Both the position numbers and the translations under genes were made by a program. Below the pieces are notes generated by a model, which did no database searches, had not been told where the DNA came from, and was given only the letters and a program-made list of their open reading frames with translations. Source: a virus (lineage: Duplodnaviria > Heunggongvirae > Uroviricota > Caudoviricetes). From it: DNA of 64,000 nucleotides. The stretch lies in the IMG/VR virus record IMGVR_UViG_2802428818_000001, positions 52,564 through 116,563 of that record. One strand, 5' to 3'. Below, piece by piece: positions 739-39,331 of this stretch; within the stretch, counting starts at the first letter, position 1; every line of letters starts with the position of its first letter.

Positions 739-1056
739 ATGATCAGCGTGCCTGCCTACCACAAAACGATCACTTTCACTGAGTTGTCGGACCCGGACGA
801 CCTGCATTCGCCCTTTAGCGAAAAGACGTTTTCGCTAATGACGCGCAACAATCTGGTCGACGAACGTGACCTGGCAGTGAGCGGCTGGGCGATCGAAACC
901 TATGTGACGCACCAGTTCGGCGTCGATCCGACGAAGTGCGAGATTCATCGGGACAATGCTGCTATGGGCTGGCGCGTCTCCTGGCGCATGATCGTCGCCG
1001 AGAACATCGACCAGTATGAATATCTGTTCGACAAGCGCGAGTTTATCGCCAACTGA
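739..1056 (+). CDS. hypothetical protein
   Basis: track ORF 697..1056 begins with TTG; ATG at 739 preceded by GAAGGTGGG. Confidence 0.45.
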   Translation: MISVPAYHKTITFTELSDPDDLHSPFSEKTFSLMTRNNLVDERDLAVSGWAIETYVTHQFGVDPTKCEIHRDNAAMGWRVSWRMIVAENIDQYEYLFDKREFIAN

Positions 1057-1065
1057 CTCTTGCAT

Positions 1066-1092
1066 GGCCGGTCACGCCGGCCTAAATAAATT
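1066..1092 (+). terminator. putative rho-independent terminator
   Basis: GGCCGG-TCACG-CCGGCC hairpin followed by TAAATAAATT. Confidence 0.5.
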
Positions 1093-1236
1093 CCCGGCGT
1101 GGCCCTAGAACTCTCTTCCGGCCCTGATCTCCCAAGATACCAGGACGGACGTGTCTAGTTCGTTGTTGACGCAAATGGGCCTCGCCACCCTCCTCTTCCA
1201 AATCCCGTAAAAGTTCGTTAACCATTAGGCGCTAGA

Positions 1237-19806: not shown

Positions 19807-20033
19807 GCTGCGGCCTCGACTTGCTGGCGAACAAACTGGTCGATCGCCTGGGCGGCCGGAACGAAGGTCGCGGCGTATTCGGCGCAGTTGCAGTCGAGGC
19901 GCCGGCGTGGCTTCACGATGCTGAACGGCACGACGCTGATCTCGGTGATGTGGCCGCACTCGTCGCACTTGAGGAAGTGCTTGACGGGCTGCGCCTGAAC
20001 CGGTGGCTTCTTCTGCTTATGCTTCTTGGGCAA
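19803..20033 (-). CDS. small zinc-ribbon protein
   Basis: CDECGH...CNC pattern, 76 aa. Confidence 0.5.
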   Translation of the reverse strand: MPKKHKQKKPPVQAQPVKHFLKCDECGHITEISVVPFSIVKPRRRLDCNCAEYAATFVPAAQAIDQFVRQQVEAAA

Positions 20034-20574
20034 GGGAGAGCTCCTGCTTCTGGTTTTGAATCTGGTCCATCGTCAGCGACCACAGAACCTTGTCGCCGCG
20101 CAGCGCCAGGACGCGCATCACGTCCAGTTTCTCCTCGAGGAAGACGGGCGCGAAGCTCGGGCCGAGCTGGGCGATGTTCTTGATGTTGTCCTTGATGTCG
20201 GCGAGCTTCACGTCCTGGACGCGACCTGGCGCCAGCGCCAAGCGGTCGACATTCATCTTGTGGCGCGCCTTGCGATTGCCGGCGTCACGCTCGACGTTGG
20301 TGAGATAACCGACACCCTGCGCGATCTCTTCTCCGAAAAGGGTCCGGATGACCTCGAGCGTGACGCCGGTGTCCTCGACGGTATCGTGCAGCCAGGCCAT
20401 GCAGACCTGCTGCCAGGTGTGATCCGGGAGTGCCTGAATGATGCCGGCGACAGCGCGCGGATGAACAATGTAGGGCACGCCGGTGAACTTGCGCTTTTGG
20501 TCGACGGCATAGTGCGCTGCGGTCGCGAACGCCTCGGCACGAGCAATCATTTCCTCGCCATAAGTTGAATACAT
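20017..20574 (-). CDS. HD-domain (p)ppGpp hydrolase, small alarmone hydrolase type
   Basis: VHPRAV...AWLHDTVEDT matches the RelA/SpoT HD hydrolase signature; AGGAGAG SD; trimmed from 20017..20595. Confidence 0.7.
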   Translation of the reverse strand: MYSTYGEEMIARAEAFATAAHYAVDQKRKFTGVPYIVHPRAVAGIIQALPDHTWQQVCMAWLHDTVEDTGVTLEVIRTLFGEEIAQGVGYLTNVERDAGNRKARHKMNVDRLALAPGRVQDVKLADIKDNIKNIAQLGPSFAPVFLEEKLDVMRVLALRGDKVLWSLTMDQIQNQKQELSLAQEA

Positions 20575-20588
20575 TGCGTCTCTCCTGA

Positions 20589-20610
20589 CAATCAATCAAT
20601 GTTTACTTAT
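20589..20610 (-). promoter_or_regulatory. family B (CAATCAATCAATGTTTACTTAT)
   Basis: sense form AAGTAAACATTGATTGATTG directly 5' of AGGAGAG SD of HD hydrolase gene. Confidence 0.55.
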
Positions 20611-23293: not shown

Positions 23294-24754
23294 CTATGCA
23301 GCCGCTTCAGTGGTCCTGGGCTTTTTCTTCGAGCGCTGCCACTTCATTTCGCCGGCCATGATCGAGCCGAGCGGAAGGATGCGATCGACGACATTGGCAA
23401 GACCGTGCTTCTGGATCTGCGCCTGCACCTGGTCAGCGTTCTTGTAGGCCGACGGAAACTCGGACGGATCTGCAAAGCCGGAATAGAAGCGAACGTCGAG
23501 CCCGGCCGTCTCCTTGATCATCTGCTGCGCCGTGTCGCGTGGGCTAAGCCCACGGTCGTCAGAGCCATATGCAGCAGCCAACCGCCTCAGGTGAGCCGTG
23601 CGTGACAGATTGCGGCCAGCACCGTGCGGCGCAAAGCCAAGGGCGTCTTCGTTGTTGACGTGCTCCGTCACCAGGATCGGCTGCGCCATGTTGAGCGGAA
23701 TCAGCGTCACGCCGCGATCGTCGGGTGCAAAGCCTTTGAAGGACGGCGTTGCGCCTTTGGCGTGGTAGAAGAGCCCGTCCTCGCGCTTGAAGACGAAATT
23801 GTGCTCATTCCACACCTGATCGACGATGGCATTGCCGAGATAGCCGGCGATCAGATGGTGCAGGGCGAAGTGATTGAGCTTTGTCCACAGGCGAACGGTC
23901 TGAAGCGCATCCCAATATGCCAGGCCGTCTTCGCTGTTGGCGTCGATCCAGGCGTTGTGCAGCGGGACTCGCGGCGCGACGATGCGCGTGTGCTTCTCTG
24001 CGACACGCTTGCCACGCTTGTAGAGCTGCGCGCCAAGGCCACGCGAGCCGAAGTGCGTCACGAGCGCCAGCTCGCCGGTGCTTTCCTTTTCGCCGACAAA
24101 CAGGAAGTGGTTGCCGTCGCCGGCCGTGATGAAGTGCTCAATGGCGATATCCTCGAGGCCCTTCAGGAACGGATTGGCAGGGAAGCGCTGCAGAACAGTC
24201 TTCAGCAGCGGCGTGAAGTTCGACGGCACTTCCTTGTCGTGCGGCCGGCCGCCTGGCCCGAAGTGCGCTGCTTTCATCGCAGCGTTCAGCACCTTGGCGA
24301 CGTCATCCTTACGCTTGAAGATCGACATCGCCACAGAGCAGCAGATATCCGCGGAATGGAAGCCCGGATGGATCGCAGCCTTGGTCGCCACGACGCCACC
24401 GACAGGAATGGTGCCCATCTGGGTGCCGGAGGGGCAGGCGTCGGGCATGACAGCGCCACGCTCGATCGTCGGCACGCGCAGCAGCGCATCCATGTGCGCG
24501 ATGACTGATGCGACATTGAGGATCTCGTCTTCGGTCTCCGGCTCGATGAAGCGGCCGAACGGAATGGAGTTCGTGCGCAGCGGCACTGCATCAACGACGC
24601 TCGGCATGACGCGCAGCGTGAAGAGGTGATCGATGATCTGGCGATCGGTCTTGCCTTCAGAGCGCATCTGATTGGCGAGCGGGATAGCGTCCTTGAACCA
24701 GGCGCCAGGCTCGAGGCCCCAGGCCGTCAGGGTTTTGCCAGAGATATTGCTCAC
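23294..24754 (-). CDS. rtcB: RtcB-family RNA 3'-phosphate/5'-OH ligase
   Basis: 486 aa after trimming to GTG with GAGAAAGGAAAC SD; RtcB metal-site residues in the CPSGTQMGT-type context. Confidence 0.85.
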   Translation of the reverse strand: MSNISGKTLTAWGLEPGAWFKDAIPLANQMRSEGKTDRQIIDHLFTLRVMPSVVDAVPLRTNSIPFGRFIEPETEDEILNVASVIAHMDALLRVPTIERGAVMPDACPSGTQMGTIPVGGVVATKAAIHPGFHSADICCSVAMSIFKRKDDVAKVLNAAMKAAHFGPGGRPHDKEVPSNFTPLLKTVLQRFPANPFLKGLEDIAIEHFITAGDGNHFLFVGEKESTGELALVTHFGSRGLGAQLYKRGKRVAEKHTRIVAPRVPLHNAWIDANSEDGLAYWDALQTVRLWTKLNHFALHHLIAGYLGNAIVDQVWNEHNFVFKREDGLFYHAKGATPSFKGFAPDDRGVTLIPLNMAQPILVTEHVNNEDALGFAPHGAGRNLSRTAHLRRLAAAYGSDDRGLSPRDTAQQMIKETAGLDVRFYSGFADPSEFPSAYKNADQVQAQIQKHGLANVVDRILPLGSIMAGEMKWQRSKKKPRTTEAAA

Positions 24755-24881
24755 TTCTTGTTTCCTTTCTCTTGCGCCATAGCGCGCTGAATATTGGCGA
24801 GCACCAGCTTGCGGTGATCGTAAAAGTCGTCGGTGTGGGTGCGAACGCGGCCGAGCTTCGGGTCGTATTGGCCGACTGCCA

Positions 24882-25349
24882 TCAGTCAGCCTCATCCCAG
24901 GTCTCGGCGAAGCGGCAGTTCGCCGGCATGTCAGCGAACATCGGCTTGATCTGCTCACGCTTGTAGCCGGCGAGGCCGCAGCCGATCGGCGTCACGTAGA
25001 AGGTCCAGCGCGAGTGCTTACGGGCAAAGGCGATGAAGTCCATAACCGACTTCTCGATCTCGACCAGGCCGCGTGTGCGCAGCCATTCATCCTTGGTCGG
25101 GATGCCGTAGGACGTGCCTTGCAGCCCGACACCCTGGCCGCGAATTGCTCCGCGCTGACGGAGGGCGTAACGAGCGGCGCCGGCGCCATGAATGCCGGCC
25201 AGGTTTGAGCCAAAGACAAAGACGTCATTCGTGCGCGCGCCGGTCGTGGCGTTGACGCGCTCAAAGGTGACATCATCGATCCAGAAATTGTCGGGATCGC
25301 TCGGGTCGGGCGTGCCTGACCAGTGGTTCGCGTCGTCCGTGTCAGTCAT
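24882..25349 (-). CDS. Rossmann-like (SLOG/DprA-like?) protein
   Basis: VFVFGSNLAGIHGAGAARYA...GQGVGLQG glycine-rich Rossmann signature; trimmed to MTDTDDANH... Confidence 0.4.
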   Translation of the reverse strand: MTDTDDANHWSGTPDPSDPDNFWIDDVTFERVNATTGARTNDVFVFGSNLAGIHGAGAARYALRQRGAIRGQGVGLQGTSYGIPTKDEWLRTRGLVEIEKSVMDFIAFARKHSRWTFYVTPIGCGLAGYKREQIKPMFADMPANCRFAETWDEAD

Positions 25350-38238: not shown

Positions 38239-38507
38239 TAAGCGAACCTCGGGCCGTCAGTGACTTCCTCGAGGAACACATTGGCGCGGTATTCGACGCC
38301 GTTGTGCGTGAAAGTGGTCGCGATCGTCTGCTTGCCTTCCAGGAAACCGCGAATAACAGCCTTGCCGGAGTTGACGACATCGAGGGCGCGATCGGTAACG
38401 TTCTTCACACGATCGAGCAGATGACACTCCTCGTCGGTGATCTCCGGACGGGCAGGTGCCGGCTCGGGTGTGGGTCGCAGCTTGAATGCAAGAATGGTGG
38501 CAGACAT
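38238..38507 (-). CDS. hypothetical protein
   Basis: trimmed to MSATILAFKL...; GGAG 6 nt upstream; family B motif abuts SD. Confidence 0.55.
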   Translation of the reverse strand: MSATILAFKLRPTPEPAPARPEITDEECHLLDRVKNVTDRALDVVNSGKAVIRGFLEGKQTIATTFTHNGVEYRANVFLEEVTDGPRFA

Positions 38508-38513
38508 GCGCTT

Positions 38514-38536
38514 CTCCTCAATCAAAGTTGACTTAC
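38514..38536 (-). promoter_or_regulatory. family B (CCTCAATCAAAGTTGACTTACTG)
   Basis: abuts GGAG SD of 38507 gene. Confidence 0.5.
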
Positions 38537-38745
38537 TGCGGTAAGGGATTCGAGCCCTTGGGGGCCAGCTACTTGACGGCAGCGCGCCATTTCGCCAGTC
38601 CTCTATCGCTGCTTCACCGTTAGACCACTCCGGCAACCGCAATTCTTAAATGGACAAGTTTGGTATCCCGCCGAGGAGTCGAACCCCTAAAACCTAAGCT
38701 CTGCGCAAAGCGTCGGTTCCTGCTCTCACAAGGCCACCCTCACTA
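38530..38745 (-). ncRNA. tRNA-like element(s): two T-arm + acceptor-3' motifs, one ending ACCA
   Basis: minus-strand GGGGTTCGACTCCTCGGCGGGATACCA and AAGGGCTCGAATCCCTTACCGCAG; second has pairing 5' TTGCGGT; full cloverleaf not closed by eye. Confidence 0.4.
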
Positions 38746-38947
38746 CCGGCAGTCTACAGCGCGCGTATCCTGCTTTCGTCTTCGAGCGACGGGACACCAA
38801 ACCTGTCCTTTATGTGATGGGTGACGCTACTAGAGGACACTCGGAACCAGTCCTCCTTCGTCGCTTTCCGAGCGCGACAGGCTCTCGCCGTCCTCACCCA
38901 TCACATAAAGGCCGGGCTTATTTTCTGACGATCCCGGCTCGTCTTGG

Positions 38948-38965
38948 CTCAATCAATTTGGACTG
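38948..38965 (-). promoter_or_regulatory. family B variant (CTCAATCAATTTGGACTG)
   Basis: intergenic upstream of tRNA-like element. Confidence 0.4.
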
Positions 38966-39028
38966 TATCCGACGGTCACTTAGAACTTGGTCATCAACAC
39001 CTCTTTGTTCGTTTCGCTGCGCTTGTGT

Positions 39029-39068
39029 TCAATCAACATTTACTTACTAGCAAGCGCAGCGATGGGAC
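39029..39068 (-). promoter_or_regulatory. extended family B box (TCAATCAACATTTACTTACTAGCAAGCGCAGCGATGGGA)
   Basis: nearly identical 40-nt box to the one at 61129-61168; no CDS follows, only the tRNA-like element. Confidence 0.55.
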
Positions 39069-39082
39069 TCAAGCGCTATTTT

Positions 39083-39331
39083 TCAGAAATCGTCGTCTTC
39101 CTGCGAAGTGCTCTGCAGGTGCTTCTCGAGATCCTCGAGTCCACCAAGCAACTCGCCGTCGATGAAGACGCGCGGGAAGGAGCGATGACCGGCGTTCTTG
39201 AAGGCTTCGACCTTCTCCGGCGTCTCGTGATCCTCGGTCGTATATGCGAGACCCTTGCGCTCCAAGAGCGCCTTGGTCTTCACGCAGTAACCGCAGGGCG
39301 GCGTGGATCTGATCAGAACATGAATACCCAT
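39083..39331 (-). CDS. glutaredoxin (NrdH-like)
   Basis: CGYC active site, 82 aa; immediately downstream of RNR alpha. Confidence 0.8.
   Translation of the reverse strand: MGIHVLIRSTPPCGYCVKTKALLERKGLAYTTEDHETPEKVEAFKNAGHRSFPRVFIDGELLGGLEDLEKHLQSTSQEDDDF

What the first reader, a model, noticed from the sequence alone, without database searches (positions are those of the whole stretch)
38514..39068. tRNA-like element(s) in a 570-bp gap, driven by family B boxes, with T-arm/acceptor/ACCA motifs that do not close into a standard cloverleaf
On the minus strand the gap between the 38507 gene and the glutaredoxin gene contains GGGGTTCGACTCC-TCGGCGGGAT-ACCA (a canonical T-loop GGTTCGANTCC plus an acceptor 3' strand and an encoded CCA). 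About 60 nt downstream lies AAGGG-CTCGAAT-CCCTT-ACCGCAG, whose acceptor strand pairs with an upstream TTGCGGT and which has a Ser/Leu-like D-arm (CCG-GAGTGGTCTAA-CGG). By eye the implied molecules are too long (about 107 and 135 nt) for ordinary tRNAs. Possibilities are a class II or otherwise unusual tRNA, a permuted or fragmentary tmRNA-like RNA, or tRNA 3'-end fragments forming an attP core for tRNA-site integration. Two family B boxes (38948, 39029 with the long extension) lie upstream with no CDS to serve, consistent with a promoter driving this RNA.
Basis: seen in the sequence. Interest (0 to 1): 0.6.

Follow-up and report, generated by a model that had tools for sequence, protein, structure and literature searches.

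The report
Anticodon-less tRNA mimics in a phage
A Rhizobium phage carries, in a fast-changing non-coding slot where its relatives keep a normal tRNA-Cys gene, two RNA genes that copy the top half of a tRNA but have no anticodon arm, so they probably imitate tRNAs rather than decode.

Summary
The motifs are real and lie on the minus strand. tRL1 (38795-38661, in a cassette 38808-38652) has a canonical T arm, a 7-bp acceptor and an encoded ACCA. tRL2 (38643-38535) has an 8-bp acceptor, a class-II-type D arm and a T arm.

Neither has an anticodon arm. ARAGORN and Rfam call no tRNA, tmRNA or Y RNA.

tRL2 has one homologue, in a related phage contig (L030). All 22 stem pairs are kept there and 7 changed on both sides, so its fold is under selection. 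Five further sequences of the same layout, four of them distinct, turned up in other proteobacterial (pro)phages.

tRL1 is an orphan. Its acceptor helix is extended to 22 bp with three G.U pairs that exist only in the minus-strand RNA.

The window is a ~116-kb RHEph10-like phage assembled with Rhizobium azibense. In relatives the same slot holds a true tRNA-Cys, other structured modules, or nothing.

The attP and permuted-tmRNA readings are not supported.

Best reading: non-decoding tRNA mimics cut from a read-through transcript. Their function is unproven. A decoy role in tRNA-centred conflict is possible, since the phage also encodes RtcB. This is a new variant of a known kind, of moderate interest.

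The parts
39029..39072 (-). Promoter-like region with box 1. It has a -35-like TTGAGT (39072-39067). The box AGTAAGTAAATGTTGATTGA (39048-39029) lies in the loop of an 11-bp inverted repeat, CGCTGCGCTTG (39061-39051) / CAAGCGCAGCG (39025-39015).
   Evidence: Read from the sequence. The motif is over-represented and its consensus and context are shown. It is conserved in all relatives. Promoter function is inferred.
38980..39003 (-). Shine-Dalgarno GAGGTG (39003-38998) followed by the mini-ORF ATG ACC AAG TTC TAA (38994-38980).
   Evidence: An SD plus ATG plus 1-3 codons plus stop is present at this position in nearly all relatives examined, with variable codons. L127 lacks it and L030 is less clear. 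Translation is not shown.
38949..38956 (-). Box 2 (TTGATTGA), preceded by AGTCCAAA.
   Evidence: Conserved in relatives.
38911..38943 (-). Conserved leader hairpin GCCGGG (38938-38933) / CCCGGC (38916-38911), with a conserved loop AUCGUCAGAAAAUAAG. A second pairing, GACGA (38943-38939) with UCGUC (38931-38927), would make it an H-type pseudoknot.
   Evidence: Across 11 distinct sequences the 6 hairpin pairs are 100% paired and 2 pairs change on both sides. The putative pseudoknot stem is invariant, so it is untested.
38807..38911 (-). Module C, a long branched hairpin. Its 18-bp perfect outer stem is CCTTTATGTGATGGGTGA / TCACCCATCACATAAAGG, with two inner hairpins.
   Evidence: Fold. The base CCUUAUG/CAUAAGG is conserved in most relatives while the interior is unrelated between them. 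The L030 copy is homologous, with compensatory changes in the outer stem.
38652..38808 (-). The tRL1 cassette.
- The tRNA-like core is 38795-38661.
- Acceptor: GTCCCGT (38795-38789) with GCGGGAT (38671-38665).
- T arm: 38688-38672, with T loop TTCGACT.
- Discriminator A38664 and CCA 38663-38661.
- Between the acceptor and the T arm lie three irregular hairpins, not D or anticodon arms.
- Leader 38808-38796 pairs with ACCA plus the trailer (38664-38652), extending the helix to about 22 bp with 3 G.U pairs.
   Evidence: Sequence. MFE is -72.4 kcal/mol with z = -4.08, against -54.1 on the other strand. It is absent from L030, where module C abuts tRL2 directly. No homologue was found anywhere and there is no Rfam hit.
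38535..38643 (-). tRL2.
- 8-bp acceptor: ATTGCGGT (38643-38636) with ACCGCAGT (38542-38535).
- TG at positions 8-9.
- D arm: CCG-GAGTGGTCTAA-CGG (38633-38617).
- Link: TGAA.
- 6-bp stem S1: GCAGCG (38612-38607) with CGCTGC (38584-38579), closing a 22-nt loop.
- 19-nt tail.
- T arm: AAGGG-CTCGAAT-CCCTT (38559-38543).
- No encoded CCA.
   Evidence: Comparison with L030 covers 22 pairs: none broken, 7 changed on both sides, 1 on one side. The Rfam tRNA model aligns to the L030 copy with the anticodon arm replaced by a 45-nt insert. The window copy has no Rfam hit. ARAGORN calls it only when forced with a 20-nt 'intron' at 70% thresholds.
38518..38535 (-). Box 3, TAAGTCAACTTTGATTGA, abutting tRL2. 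It lies 10 nt upstream of the ATG at 38507, with GGAG directly after the box.
   Evidence: Conserved in relatives.

Best explanation
**What the gap is.** The gap is a hypervariable slot for structured-RNA cassettes in an RHEph10-like phage of about 116 kb. It is transcribed on the minus strand, starting from phage-specific promoter-like boxes. A conserved leader follows: a mini-ORF, then a hairpin with the loop GUCAGAAAAUAA, then a long branched hairpin.

**The two cassettes.** Both are tRNA-derived mimics that cannot decode.
- tRL2 keeps the acceptor helix, the class-II D arm and the T arm. These form the elbow and top half of a tRNA. In place of the anticodon and variable arms it has a 57-nt domain: a 6-bp stem, a 22-nt loop and a 19-nt tail.
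- tRL1 keeps only the acceptor/T-arm minihelix with an encoded ACCA, closing a multi-branched interior.

**Inferred mechanism.**
1. No terminator-like site was found on this strand, so the cassettes lie in a read-through transcript.
2. They are released by the tRNA-processing machinery. RNase P would cut at G38795 and near 38643/38642. The 3' ends would be trimmed to CCA. RNase III may cut the 18- to 22-bp helices.
3. They then persist as stable tRNA-shaped RNAs. These could engage proteins that read the tRNA top half or the CCA end without reading an anticodon.

**Likeliest role.** They may act as a decoy or sponge in tRNA-centred phage-host conflict. The same phage encodes an RtcB tRNA ligase and an HD_4 (SpoT-type) hydrolase.

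**Shown:** the anatomy, the strand, selection on the tRL2 fold, and cassette turnover. **Inferred:** expression, processing and function.
For: **Anatomy and strand.**
- The sequence itself.
- tRL1 folds at z = -4.08. The three non-Watson-Crick positions of its 22-bp helix are G.U pairs only in the minus-strand RNA (-72.4 against -54.1 kcal/mol).

**No decoding arm.**
- ARAGORN finds 0 genes.
- Rfam finds no tRNA, tmRNA or YrlA at gathering score or at E<=10.

**Selection on the tRL2 fold.**
- The homologue in L030 keeps all 22 stem pairs despite 7 substitutions in the scaffold stems and a wholly different S1 sequence. There are 7 double changes and 1 single change.
- The Rfam tRNA model aligns to its acceptor, D and T arms only, at 21.4 bits against the gathering score of 29.

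**Same layout elsewhere.**
- The pattern scans recovered L051, L081/L082, L053, L080/L084 and L136.
- They are 100-109 nt long, with a link of 3-5 nt, S1 of 5-6 bp, a loop of 17-22 nt and a tail of 17-23 nt. Acceptor and T stems covary.
- Where flanks could be read (L051, L053, L080/L084, L081/L082) they sit near terminase genes in (pro)phages. The flanks of L136 were not examined.
- ARAGORN calls none of the six it was run on; L136 was not tested. The Rfam tRNA model scores L053 at 31.9 bits, with the anticodon arm replaced by a 45-nt insert.
-.

**The slot is a tRNA/RNA cassette site.**
- True tRNA-Cys(GCA) in RHEph10 and in L013/L028.
- A class-II-shaped tRNA-Cys in L011.
- T-arm-bearing odd modules in L006, L031 and L131.
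- No tRNA-like cassette in N1_15, Y2_11 and L127.
-.

**Transcription and genome context.**
- No terminator-like site on the minus strand of the gap.
- RtcB at 23294-24958 and HD_4 at 20017-20595.
- RtcB is also present in RHEph10.
Against: - There are no expression data.
- tRL1 has no homologue at all, so its fold rests on thermodynamics and G.U asymmetry alone.
- tRL2 rests on a single true homologue.
- The wider structural class was found with a pattern that imposed the D arm, the T loop and a long spacing (ascertainment bias). Homology to tRL2 is unproven.
- tRL2 has C54 in its T loop (CTCGAAT) and no encoded CCA.
- Its MFE is not better than shuffles (z = -0.77), although this is usual for tRNAs.
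- RtcB and HD_4 lie 14-18 kb away. They are conserved in relatives that lack these cassettes, so the link is circumstantial.
- Rapid gain and loss of cassettes fits dispensability.
Confidence: 0.45

Rival explanations
1. These are decaying tRNA genes or debris of cassette turnover. The slot repeatedly gains tRNA genes. tRL1 and tRL2 would then be non-functional remnants whose anticodon regions were destroyed by insertions or replacement.
For: - Relatives carry an intact tRNA-Cys in the same slot, or no tRNA-like cassette.
- tRL1 is an orphan.
- tRL2 has C54 and no CCA.
- Detectors fail.
- L006 holds a 69-nt tRNA-sized degenerate element.
Against: - All 7 stem substitutions between tRL2 and its L030 homologue preserve pairing, and both copies keep a 6-bp stem at the same place despite unrelated sequence.
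- Every tRL1 helix imperfection is a G.U pair on the transcribed strand.
- The same odd layout recurs in unrelated (pro)phages.
Confidence: 0.25
2. They act mainly as cis-acting processing or stability signals. The tRNA-like folds and the 18- to 22-bp helices would be RNase P, RNase Z or RNase III punctuation marks. These would separate the RNR-glutaredoxin message from the downstream small-ORF/ThyX message, or protect mRNA ends. The excised RNAs would have no role of their own.
For: - The cassettes sit between cistrons with no terminator-like site on this strand.
- Every module is closed by a long terminal helix.
- tRL2 abuts box 3 and the SD of the next gene.
Against: - Relatives with no tRNA-like cassette keep the same flanking genes, so punctuation by these elements is not required.
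- It does not explain conservation of the D arm and elbow in tRL2.
Confidence: 0.15
3. They are true decoding tRNAs that need splicing. A 10- to 15-nt insert in the anticodon loop would be removed by an endonuclease, and the halves joined by the phage RtcB.
For: - The phage encodes RtcB, annotated as a 'tRNA splicing ligase'.
- In the whole structural class the loop closed by S1 is 17-22 nt, which is 7 nt plus 10-15 nt.
- ARAGORN, forced with introns allowed, models tRL2 with a 20-nt intron.
Against: - I could not find a bulge-helix-bulge motif by eye, nor a consistent U33-anticodon-purine37 frame across members.
- No splicing endonuclease was found among about 30 of the window's roughly 66 ORFs of 110 aa or more, the largest ones plus those flanking RtcB and the HD_4 gene.
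- The D stem is followed by 3-5 nt instead of 1.
- tRL1 has no candidate anticodon stem at all.
Confidence: 0.07
4. tRL1 is a miniature, fragmentary or two-piece (permuted) tmRNA-like RNA.
For: The 3' end GGGGTTCGACTCC...ACCA resembles a tmRNA tRNA-like domain. The host clade uses permuted tmRNA (own knowledge).
Against: - ARAGORN tmRNA search, including permuted forms, finds none. Only nonsense calls appear at a 60% threshold.
- Rfam tmRNA, alpha and permuted models give no hit.
- No ATCCCGC 5' strand follows ACCA.
- Position 3-70 is C-G, not G.U.
- The unit is 135 nt, with no tag frame or pseudoknots.
Confidence: 0.03
5. The tRNA 3'-end fragments form an attP core for integration into a host tRNA gene.
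For: tRNA 3' halves are common attP cores (established knowledge).
Against: - The 25-nt 3' motif has 0 exact matches in one genome for each of 185,579 species and in IMG/VR.
- There is no BLAST match in plasmids.
- Both elements carry their own complete 5' acceptor strands.
- No integrase is annotated in the first 100 kb of the 115-kb RHEph10 record, which has RepC.
- Related genomes occur as separate ~116-kb contigs or replicons.
Confidence: 0.02

Closest known systems
Class II tRNAs (Ser/Leu/Tyr type), and the tRNA-Cys genes in the same slot of relatives
   Same: tRL2 has a 7/8-bp acceptor and U8. It has a 3-bp D stem with an 11-nt loop, GAGUGGUCUAA, containing G18G19. It has a 5-bp T stem with a 7-nt T loop and a long region before the T arm. 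L011 carries a class-II-shaped tRNA-Cys(GCA) with a very similar D loop in the same slot.
   Different: - There is no 5-bp/7-nt anticodon arm. A 6-bp stem closes a 22-nt loop instead.
- 4 nt rather than 1 follow the D stem.
- The T loop has C54.
- No CCA is encoded.
- The length is 107-109 nt.
- ARAGORN and Rfam do not detect it.
tRNA-like domain of tmRNA
   Same: tRL1 has an acceptor/T-arm minihelix with a canonical T loop, discriminator A and CCA. It has no D stem and a non-tRNA body.
   Different: - There is no G3.U70, tag reading frame or pseudoknot series.
- It is 135 nt rather than about 260-400 nt.
- No model hit was found.
Bacterial and phage Y RNAs (YrlA; PMC4201824)
   Same: These are non-decoding RNAs with tRNA-like T and D arms plus a long terminal stem. 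They occur in phages and are linked in Salmonella to an rsr-yrlBA-rtcBA operon that contains RtcB. M. smegmatis YrlA is cut by RNase P and receives CCA.
   Different: - YrlA has the order stem, T arm, acceptor stem-loop, D arm, with its ends at the anticodon position. Here the order is that of a tRNA.
- No Ro60/TROVE gene was found among the ORFs scanned.
- There is no Rfam YrlA hit.
Phage T4 stable RNAs, species 1 and 2 (rnaC, rnaD) in the T4 tRNA cluster (own knowledge, not checked here)
   Same: These are phage-encoded stable RNAs of about 120-140 nt with unknown function. They are co-transcribed with tRNAs and matured by tRNA-processing enzymes.
   Different: No sequence relation was tested. 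The host and the phage lineage are different.
Anticodon-less class-II-like tRNA mimics in other (pro)phages, found here (L051, L053, L080/84, L081/82, L136)
   Same: They share the same 100- to 109-nt layout and lie near terminase genes where flanks were read. The acceptor and T stems covary. The stem after the D arm is complementary to the tip of a following hairpin.
   Different: There is no detectable sequence homology to tRL2 in the central domain. They were found with a biased pattern and no annotation or literature was found for them.

Membership tests
tRNA (decoding) | 7-bp acceptor stem followed by a discriminator and a 3' CCA (encoded or added) | tested here: met
   tRL1: GUCCCGU/GCGGGAU plus A plus CCA. 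tRL2: UUGCGGU/ACCGCAG, with an 8th pair that covaries in L030 and no encoded CCA.
tRNA (decoding) | T arm: 5-bp stem and a 7-nt loop T54-Psi55-C56-R57-A58 | tested here: met
   tRL1 has UUCGACU, with an A.G at the stem base. tRL2 has CUCGAAU (C54 is deviant), while its L030 homologue has UUCAAAU.
tRNA (decoding) | D arm with G18G19 | tested here: inconclusive
   Met in tRL2 (CCG-GAGUGGUCUAA-CGG, with the stem covarying in L030). Not met in tRL1, where an irregular 48-nt hairpin follows the acceptor.
tRNA (decoding) | Anticodon arm: 5-bp stem and a 7-nt loop with U33 and purine 37 | tested here: not met
   tRL2 has a 6-bp stem with a 22-nt loop, and its L030 copy has 17 nt. tRL1 has none.
tRNA (decoding) | Detected by ARAGORN or the Rfam RF00005 model at its gathering score | tested here: not met
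   The L030 homologue scores 21.4 bits, below the gathering score of 29.
tmRNA (standard or permuted) | tRNA-like domain with G3.U70, a tag reading frame, pseudoknots, and detection by ARAGORN or Rfam | tested here: not met
   Position 3-70 is C-G. There is no tmRNA call, and only nonsense calls at a 60% threshold. No 5' acceptor strand follows ACCA.
Y RNA / YrlA | Order Ro-binding stem, T arm, acceptor stem-loop, D arm; a neighbouring Ro60 (TROVE) gene; a match to the Rfam model | tested here: not met
   The arm order is that of a tRNA. There is no Rfam hit. No TROVE domain was found in about 30 of the window's roughly 66 ORFs of 110 aa or more. The other half of the phage genome was not seen.
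attP core derived from a host tRNA 3' end | Exact identity of at least ~20 nt to a host tRNA or tmRNA 3' end, plus an integrase | tested here: not met
   The tRL1 25-mer has 0 exact matches in genome contigs and viral contigs. No integrase is annotated in the first 100 kb of the 115-kb RHEph10 record. The tRL2 3' end was not scanned on its own, and inexact matches were not searched in genomes.
Non-decoding tRNA mimic (functional class, not a curated family) | tRNA top half (acceptor/T minihelix, with or without the D-arm elbow) kept under selection while the anticodon function is absent | tested here: met
   tRL2 against L030: 22 of 22 pairs kept, with 7 double changes. For tRL1 there is only thermodynamic and G.U strand evidence.
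Non-decoding tRNA mimic (functional class, not a curated family) | Expressed, processed by RNase P and the CCA enzyme, and bound by tRNA-binding proteins | not testable with these tools
   This needs RNA-seq, Northern blots and in vitro RNase P assays.

The most novel reading that the evidence does not exclude
tRL2 would belong to an undescribed class of phage RNAs of about 100-109 nt. Members so far are its L030 homologue and the L051, L053, L080, L081 and L136 elements. These RNAs keep the acceptor, class-II D arm and T arm of a tRNA. They replace the anticodon and variable arms with a compact domain in which the strand after the D arm pairs with the tip of a following hairpin. Such RNAs, and the CCA-bearing tRL1, would act as decoys or sponges for host factors that attack or read tRNAs without using the anticodon. 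Examples are toxins that modify the CCA end, nucleases that target the acceptor or elbow, SerRS or LeuRS, and RNase P. They would work alongside phage RtcB and an HD_4 hydrolase as a tRNA-protection toolkit.
Probability: 0.2. Interest if true: 0.75.

Novelty: new variant of a known kind. Interest (0 to 1): 0.5.

Why it matters
Phage tRNA genes are usually explained by codon supply or by replacing tRNAs that host defences destroy.

tRNA-shaped RNAs that cannot decode, yet keep their top-half fold under selection, point to a different use of tRNA mimicry by phages. They could act as decoys, sponges or processing handles.

The locus also offers a natural system for studying cassette-like turnover of structured RNAs. 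More than eight unrelated modules are shuffled behind one conserved leader RNA in a small family of ~116-kb Rhizobium/Ensifer phages.

If expression is confirmed, tRL2 and its look-alikes would add a family that ARAGORN and Rfam mostly miss (only L053 reaches the Rfam tRNA gathering score).

Tried and rejected
**Detectors and forced models.**
- ARAGORN default found nothing. Lowered thresholds with introns gave only forced, implausible models.
- Rfam at gathering score on the window found nothing. Rfam at E<=10 on the gap and on each element separately gave only junk hits.

**Searches for homologues.**
- BLAST of the gap and of each element against phages found only flanking CDS and the leader. 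Against plasmids it found nothing.
- The tRL1 25-mer has no exact match in IMG/VR or in genomes.
- A metagenome scan with the leader-hairpin pattern gave 9 hits, all false.
- Viral scans with a module-C pattern and a tRL2 acceptor + D-arm pattern gave only false positives.
- The L051 and L053 elements have no match in plasmids or E. coli genomes, and L081 has none in phages.

**Ideas tested and dropped.**
- Paralogy between tRL1 and tRL2: the alignment is unconvincing.
- Y RNA: rejected on arm order and on the absence of Ro60 and of any model hit.
- Bulge-helix-bulge or intron reading: no consistent motif.
- Antisense target for the tRL loops within the window: none of 13 nt or more on the complementary strand.
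- H-type pseudoknot in the conserved leader: its second stem is invariant, so there is no evidence either way.

**Other.**
- A loose statistical scan for T arm plus acceptor proved poorly discriminating.
- A look-up of the window's 89-aa protein failed when given as a DNA reference that included the stop codon. Its exact match, P0001, was not looked up; only its relatives P0002-P0005 were.
Full report
**1. What the window is**

The 89-aa ORF starting at 38507 and the glutaredoxin ending at 39083 are 100% identical to proteins named from Rhizobium azibense, on a 116,563-bp contig. The nearest described relatives are Rhizobium phages RHEph10, RHph_N1_15, N1_10 and Y2_11, at about 79% nucleotide identity in the flanking CDS.

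Further relatives occur as contigs or replicons of about 115-117 kb in Rhizobium lentis, Ensifer and Pararhizobium assemblies. Others are in IMG/VR, JGI and Logan contigs.

The gap lies on the minus strand between RNR-glutaredoxin and three small ORFs plus thymidylate synthase. The phage also encodes rIIA/rIIB, a pol III alpha, RecA, SbcCD and an RtcB RNA ligase. RHEph10 is annotated with a sigma factor, RepC and RtcB, and no integrase is listed in the first 100 kb of its 115-kb record.

**2. The observation**

tRL1 comprises:
- acceptor GUCCCGU (38795-38789) paired with GCGGGAU (38671-38665);
- T arm AGGGG-UUCGACU-CCUCG (38688-38672);
- A38664 and CCA (38663-38661), for a total of 135 nt.

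tRL2 comprises:
- acceptor AUUGCGGU (38643-38636) paired with ACCGCAGU (38542-38535);
- UG at positions 8-9;
- D arm CCG-GAGUGGUCUAA-CGG;
- T arm AAGGG-CUCGAAU-CCCUU, for a total of 107-109 nt.

- The second T arm is about 100 nt, not about 60, after ACCA.
- The ACCA is base-paired in the primary transcript.
- There is a third box directly before the 38507 gene.
- A conserved mini-ORF lies between boxes 1 and 2.

**3. Not a tRNA, tmRNA, Y RNA or attP**

- ARAGORN finds no tRNA or tmRNA in the whole window. With thresholds cut to 70-80% and introns allowed it only produces forced models.
- Rfam gives nothing at gathering score. At E<=10 for the gap or for each element alone it gives only junk.
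- Neither element has a 5-bp/7-nt anticodon arm.
- For a permuted tmRNA, a 5' acceptor strand (AUCCCGC) should follow ACCA. It does not, and 3-70 is C-G.
- For YrlA the arm order is wrong (PMC4201824), and no TROVE protein was found among about 30 of the window's roughly 66 ORFs of 110 aa or more.
- For attP, the 25-nt 3' motif has no exact match in one genome for each of 185,579 species or in IMG/VR. There is no BLAST match in plasmids. Both elements carry their own 5' acceptor strands.

**4. tRL2 is a selected, tRNA-derived fold**

One related contig (L030, Logan SRR28250545) has a homologue at the same place. Its downstream protein is 84% identical.

The two copies differ at 7 positions in the acceptor, D and T stems. 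All 7 changes keep pairing:
- A-U to G-C at the eighth acceptor pair;
- G-C to A-U at 5-68;
- G-C to G.U at 3-70;
- G-C to A-U in the D stem.

The central domains are unalignable. Even so, both start with UGAN, followed by a perfect 6-bp stem (GCAGCG/CGCUGC against GUGAAG/CUUCAC). That stem closes a loop of 22 or 17 nt, and a tail of 19 or 17 nt follows.

Overall, 22 pairs were compared: 0 broken, 7 changed on both sides. The Rfam tRNA model aligns to the L030 copy through the acceptor, D arm and T arm. The whole anticodon arm is replaced by a 45-nt insert, and the score is 21.4 bits, below the gathering score of 29.

So tRL2 descends from a class-II-type tRNA and its scaffold is under purifying selection, but it fails the defining decoding feature.

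**5. The same layout elsewhere**

A pattern demanding the D arm, a T loop and 50-80 nt between them was run on genomes and on IMG/VR. It mostly recovered ordinary long-variable-arm tRNAs and archaeal intron tRNAs.

It also recovered bacterial and viral elements: L051 in a Microvirga prophage, L053 in a Luteibacter MAG, and L080/84 and L081/82 in IMG/VR. A follow-up scan found L136.
- ARAGORN calls none of the six it was run on. L136 was not tested.
- The Rfam tRNA model scores L053 at 31.9 bits, again with a 45-nt insert in place of the anticodon arm.
- All share the tRL2 plan: 100-109 nt, a link of 3-5 nt, a stem of 5-6 bp, a loop of 17-22 nt and a tail of 17-23 nt. Acceptor and T stems differ in sequence but stay paired.
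- In each, the strand after the D arm is complementary to the apical 6-7 nt of a hairpin formed by the loop and the tail. This means either a compact pseudoknot or two alternative folds.
- Where flanks could be read (L051, L053, L080/84, L081/82) they lie near terminase genes.

Caveat: the pattern imposed the D arm, the T loop and the spacing, so only the central layout is independent evidence. Homology to tRL2 is not shown.

**6. tRL1**

No homologue exists in any collection searched. L030 lacks it: there module C abuts tRL2, so tRL1 is a 157-nt insertion or deletion closed by its own helix.

The helix GGACAGGUUUGGUGUCCCGUCG / CGGCGGGAUACCAAACUUGUCC has 22 pairs. Its three non-Watson-Crick positions are all G.U in the minus-strand RNA and would be A-C mismatches in the complement.
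- MFE is -72.4 kcal/mol (z = -4.08) on the minus strand.
- MFE is -54.1 kcal/mol on the plus strand.

Inside the helix are three irregular hairpins and then the canonical T arm. The T arm is placed exactly as in a tRNA: 7 pairs, a discriminator, then CCA.

Modules with a long closing helix and a T-loop hairpin next to its 3' strand also occur in L131, L031 and L006.

**7. The locus as a whole**

All relatives share a leader with these parts:
- a promoter-like -35 element plus box 1, AGTAAGTAAATgTTGATTGA, in the loop of a covarying inverted repeat;
- in nearly all of them, an SD plus a 2- to 5-codon mini-ORF;
- box 2;
- a hairpin GCCGGG/CCCGGC with the conserved loop AUCGUCAGAAAAUAAG. Its 6 pairs are 100% paired and 2 pairs change on both sides;
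- a long branched hairpin with a conserved base, CCUUAUG/CAUAAGG, and an unrelated interior in most relatives.

Downstream comes a mosaic of cassettes:
- tRNA-Cys(GCA) in RHEph10 and the Ensifer contig;
- a class-II-shaped tRNA-Cys in L011;
- at least five other shared non-coding modules.

TTGATTGA occurs 16 times in the window against 2.3 expected. Most copies lie 10-60 nt before start codons at operon heads.

No terminator-like site lies on the minus strand of the gap.

**8. Interpretation**

Best reading (confidence 0.45): tRL1 and tRL2 are non-decoding tRNA mimics. They are released from a read-through transcript by tRNA-processing enzymes, and perhaps by RNase III at the long helices.

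Their role is unproven. A decoy or sponge function in tRNA-centred conflict is attractive because the phage carries two relevant genes:
- RtcB (23294-24958; Pfam E = 2e-28, PHROG 'tRNA splicing ligase' E = 2e-98);
- an HD_4 SpoT-type hydrolase (20017-20595).

These genes are distant, however, and are also present in relatives that lack the cassettes.

Rivals and their confidences:
- decaying tRNA genes, 0.25;
- pure processing signals, 0.15;
- intron-bearing tRNAs spliced with RtcB, 0.07;
- tmRNA-like, 0.03;
- attP, 0.02.

**9. Verdict**

The elements are a new variant of a known kind (tRNA-like non-coding RNA). One has comparative support and the other is an orphan. Interest is moderate (0.5). 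It would rise if expression and a protein partner are shown, or if the wider class proves to be a real family.

Noticed in passing
window, 16 sites (e.g. 110, 4109, 18654, 20592, 21218, 34096, 35503, 38518, 38949, 39029, 48499, 51206, 61130, 63697): The motif (A)GTAAGTMAAYNTTGATTGA is strongly over-represented: TTGATTGA occurs 16 times against 2.3 expected. It lies mostly 10-60 nt upstream of start codons at operon heads, often in the loop of an inverted repeat whose arms differ between sites. It is probably a phage-specific promoter. RHEph10 encodes a sigma factor (gp045).
   Followed up: partly
window 39003-38980 (minus): A conserved SD (GAGGTG) is followed by a mini-ORF of ATG, 1-3 codons and a stop (here MTKF*). 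It lies between boxes 1 and 2. Nearly all relatives have one, with differing codons (MKRL*, MKSL*, MKL*, MKK*, MK*, MNR*). It is reminiscent of regulatory minigenes such as lambda bar.
   Followed up: partly
window 38943-38911 (minus): A conserved leader hairpin has the invariant loop GUCAGAAAAUAA and two covarying stem pairs. It sits right after box 2. A possible H-type pseudoknot (GACGA/UCGUC) is untestable because that stem is invariant. No Rfam family matches.
   Followed up: yes
window 38911-38807 (minus) and the same position in L001-L004, L006, L010, L011, L013, L015, L029-L031, L124, L125, L127, L128: A long branched hairpin has a base, CCUUAUG...CAUAAGG, that is conserved in most relatives. 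Its 60- to 110-nt interior is unrelated between phages yet always self-complementary. This is a variable cassette between conserved inverted ends.
   Followed up: partly
L001, L003, L010, L013/L028, L015, L029, L031, L124, L125, L128 (gap downstream of glutaredoxin): At least five other non-coding modules are shared in mosaic fashion between relatives. One is GGATGACAGTTAGAGCGTAATCGCTGCTGAAAG... . Another is a ~150-nt module with GAGAAAGCCTTCGACAATCTGCGCTGTTGAGAA. A third is GCATGAGACTGGAGGCTGAACTGCCTCC... . A fourth is ...CACAGGTAGAGTCGAGAGTTCAGCCGGCGTC... .
   Followed up: no
L011 1586-1672: In the same slot of an IMG/VR relative, ARAGORN calls a tRNA-Cys(GCA) with U73. It has a class-II body: a long variable arm and a Ser/Leu-type D loop. 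That is unusual for bacterial tRNA-Cys.
   Followed up: no
window 23294-24958 (minus) and 20017-20595 (minus): The phage encodes an RtcB RNA ligase (PHROG 'tRNA splicing ligase', E = 2e-98) and an HD_4 (RelA/SpoT-type hydrolase) protein. Both point to repair or protection of tRNAs during infection.
   Followed up: partly
L051 1959-2045(-), L053 4912-5016(+), L080 931-1022, L081 1206-1292, L084 1844-1935, L136 ~1040-1150(-): These are tRNA-shaped genes of about 100-108 nt in other proteobacterial (pro)phages, near terminase genes where flanks were read. They have a class-II D arm, covarying acceptor and T stems, and no canonical anticodon arm. The conserved UAC-GCAGG-UAG is complementary to a CCUGC(A/G)A hairpin loop. 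ARAGORN did not call the ones it was run on (L136 was not tested).
   Followed up: partly
whole window; L125 (CP119570.1), L124, L028: Genomes of this phage type appear as separate contigs or replicons of about 115-117 kb in Rhizobium, Ensifer and Pararhizobium assemblies. RHEph10 carries RepC. This suggests a plasmid-like (phage-plasmid) carrier state rather than integration.
   Followed up: no
L036 1796-1900: A Puniceicoccaceae MAG has a tRNA-Ser(CGA)-like gene with an insertion of about 30 nt in the D loop. ARAGORN does not call it.
   Followed up: no
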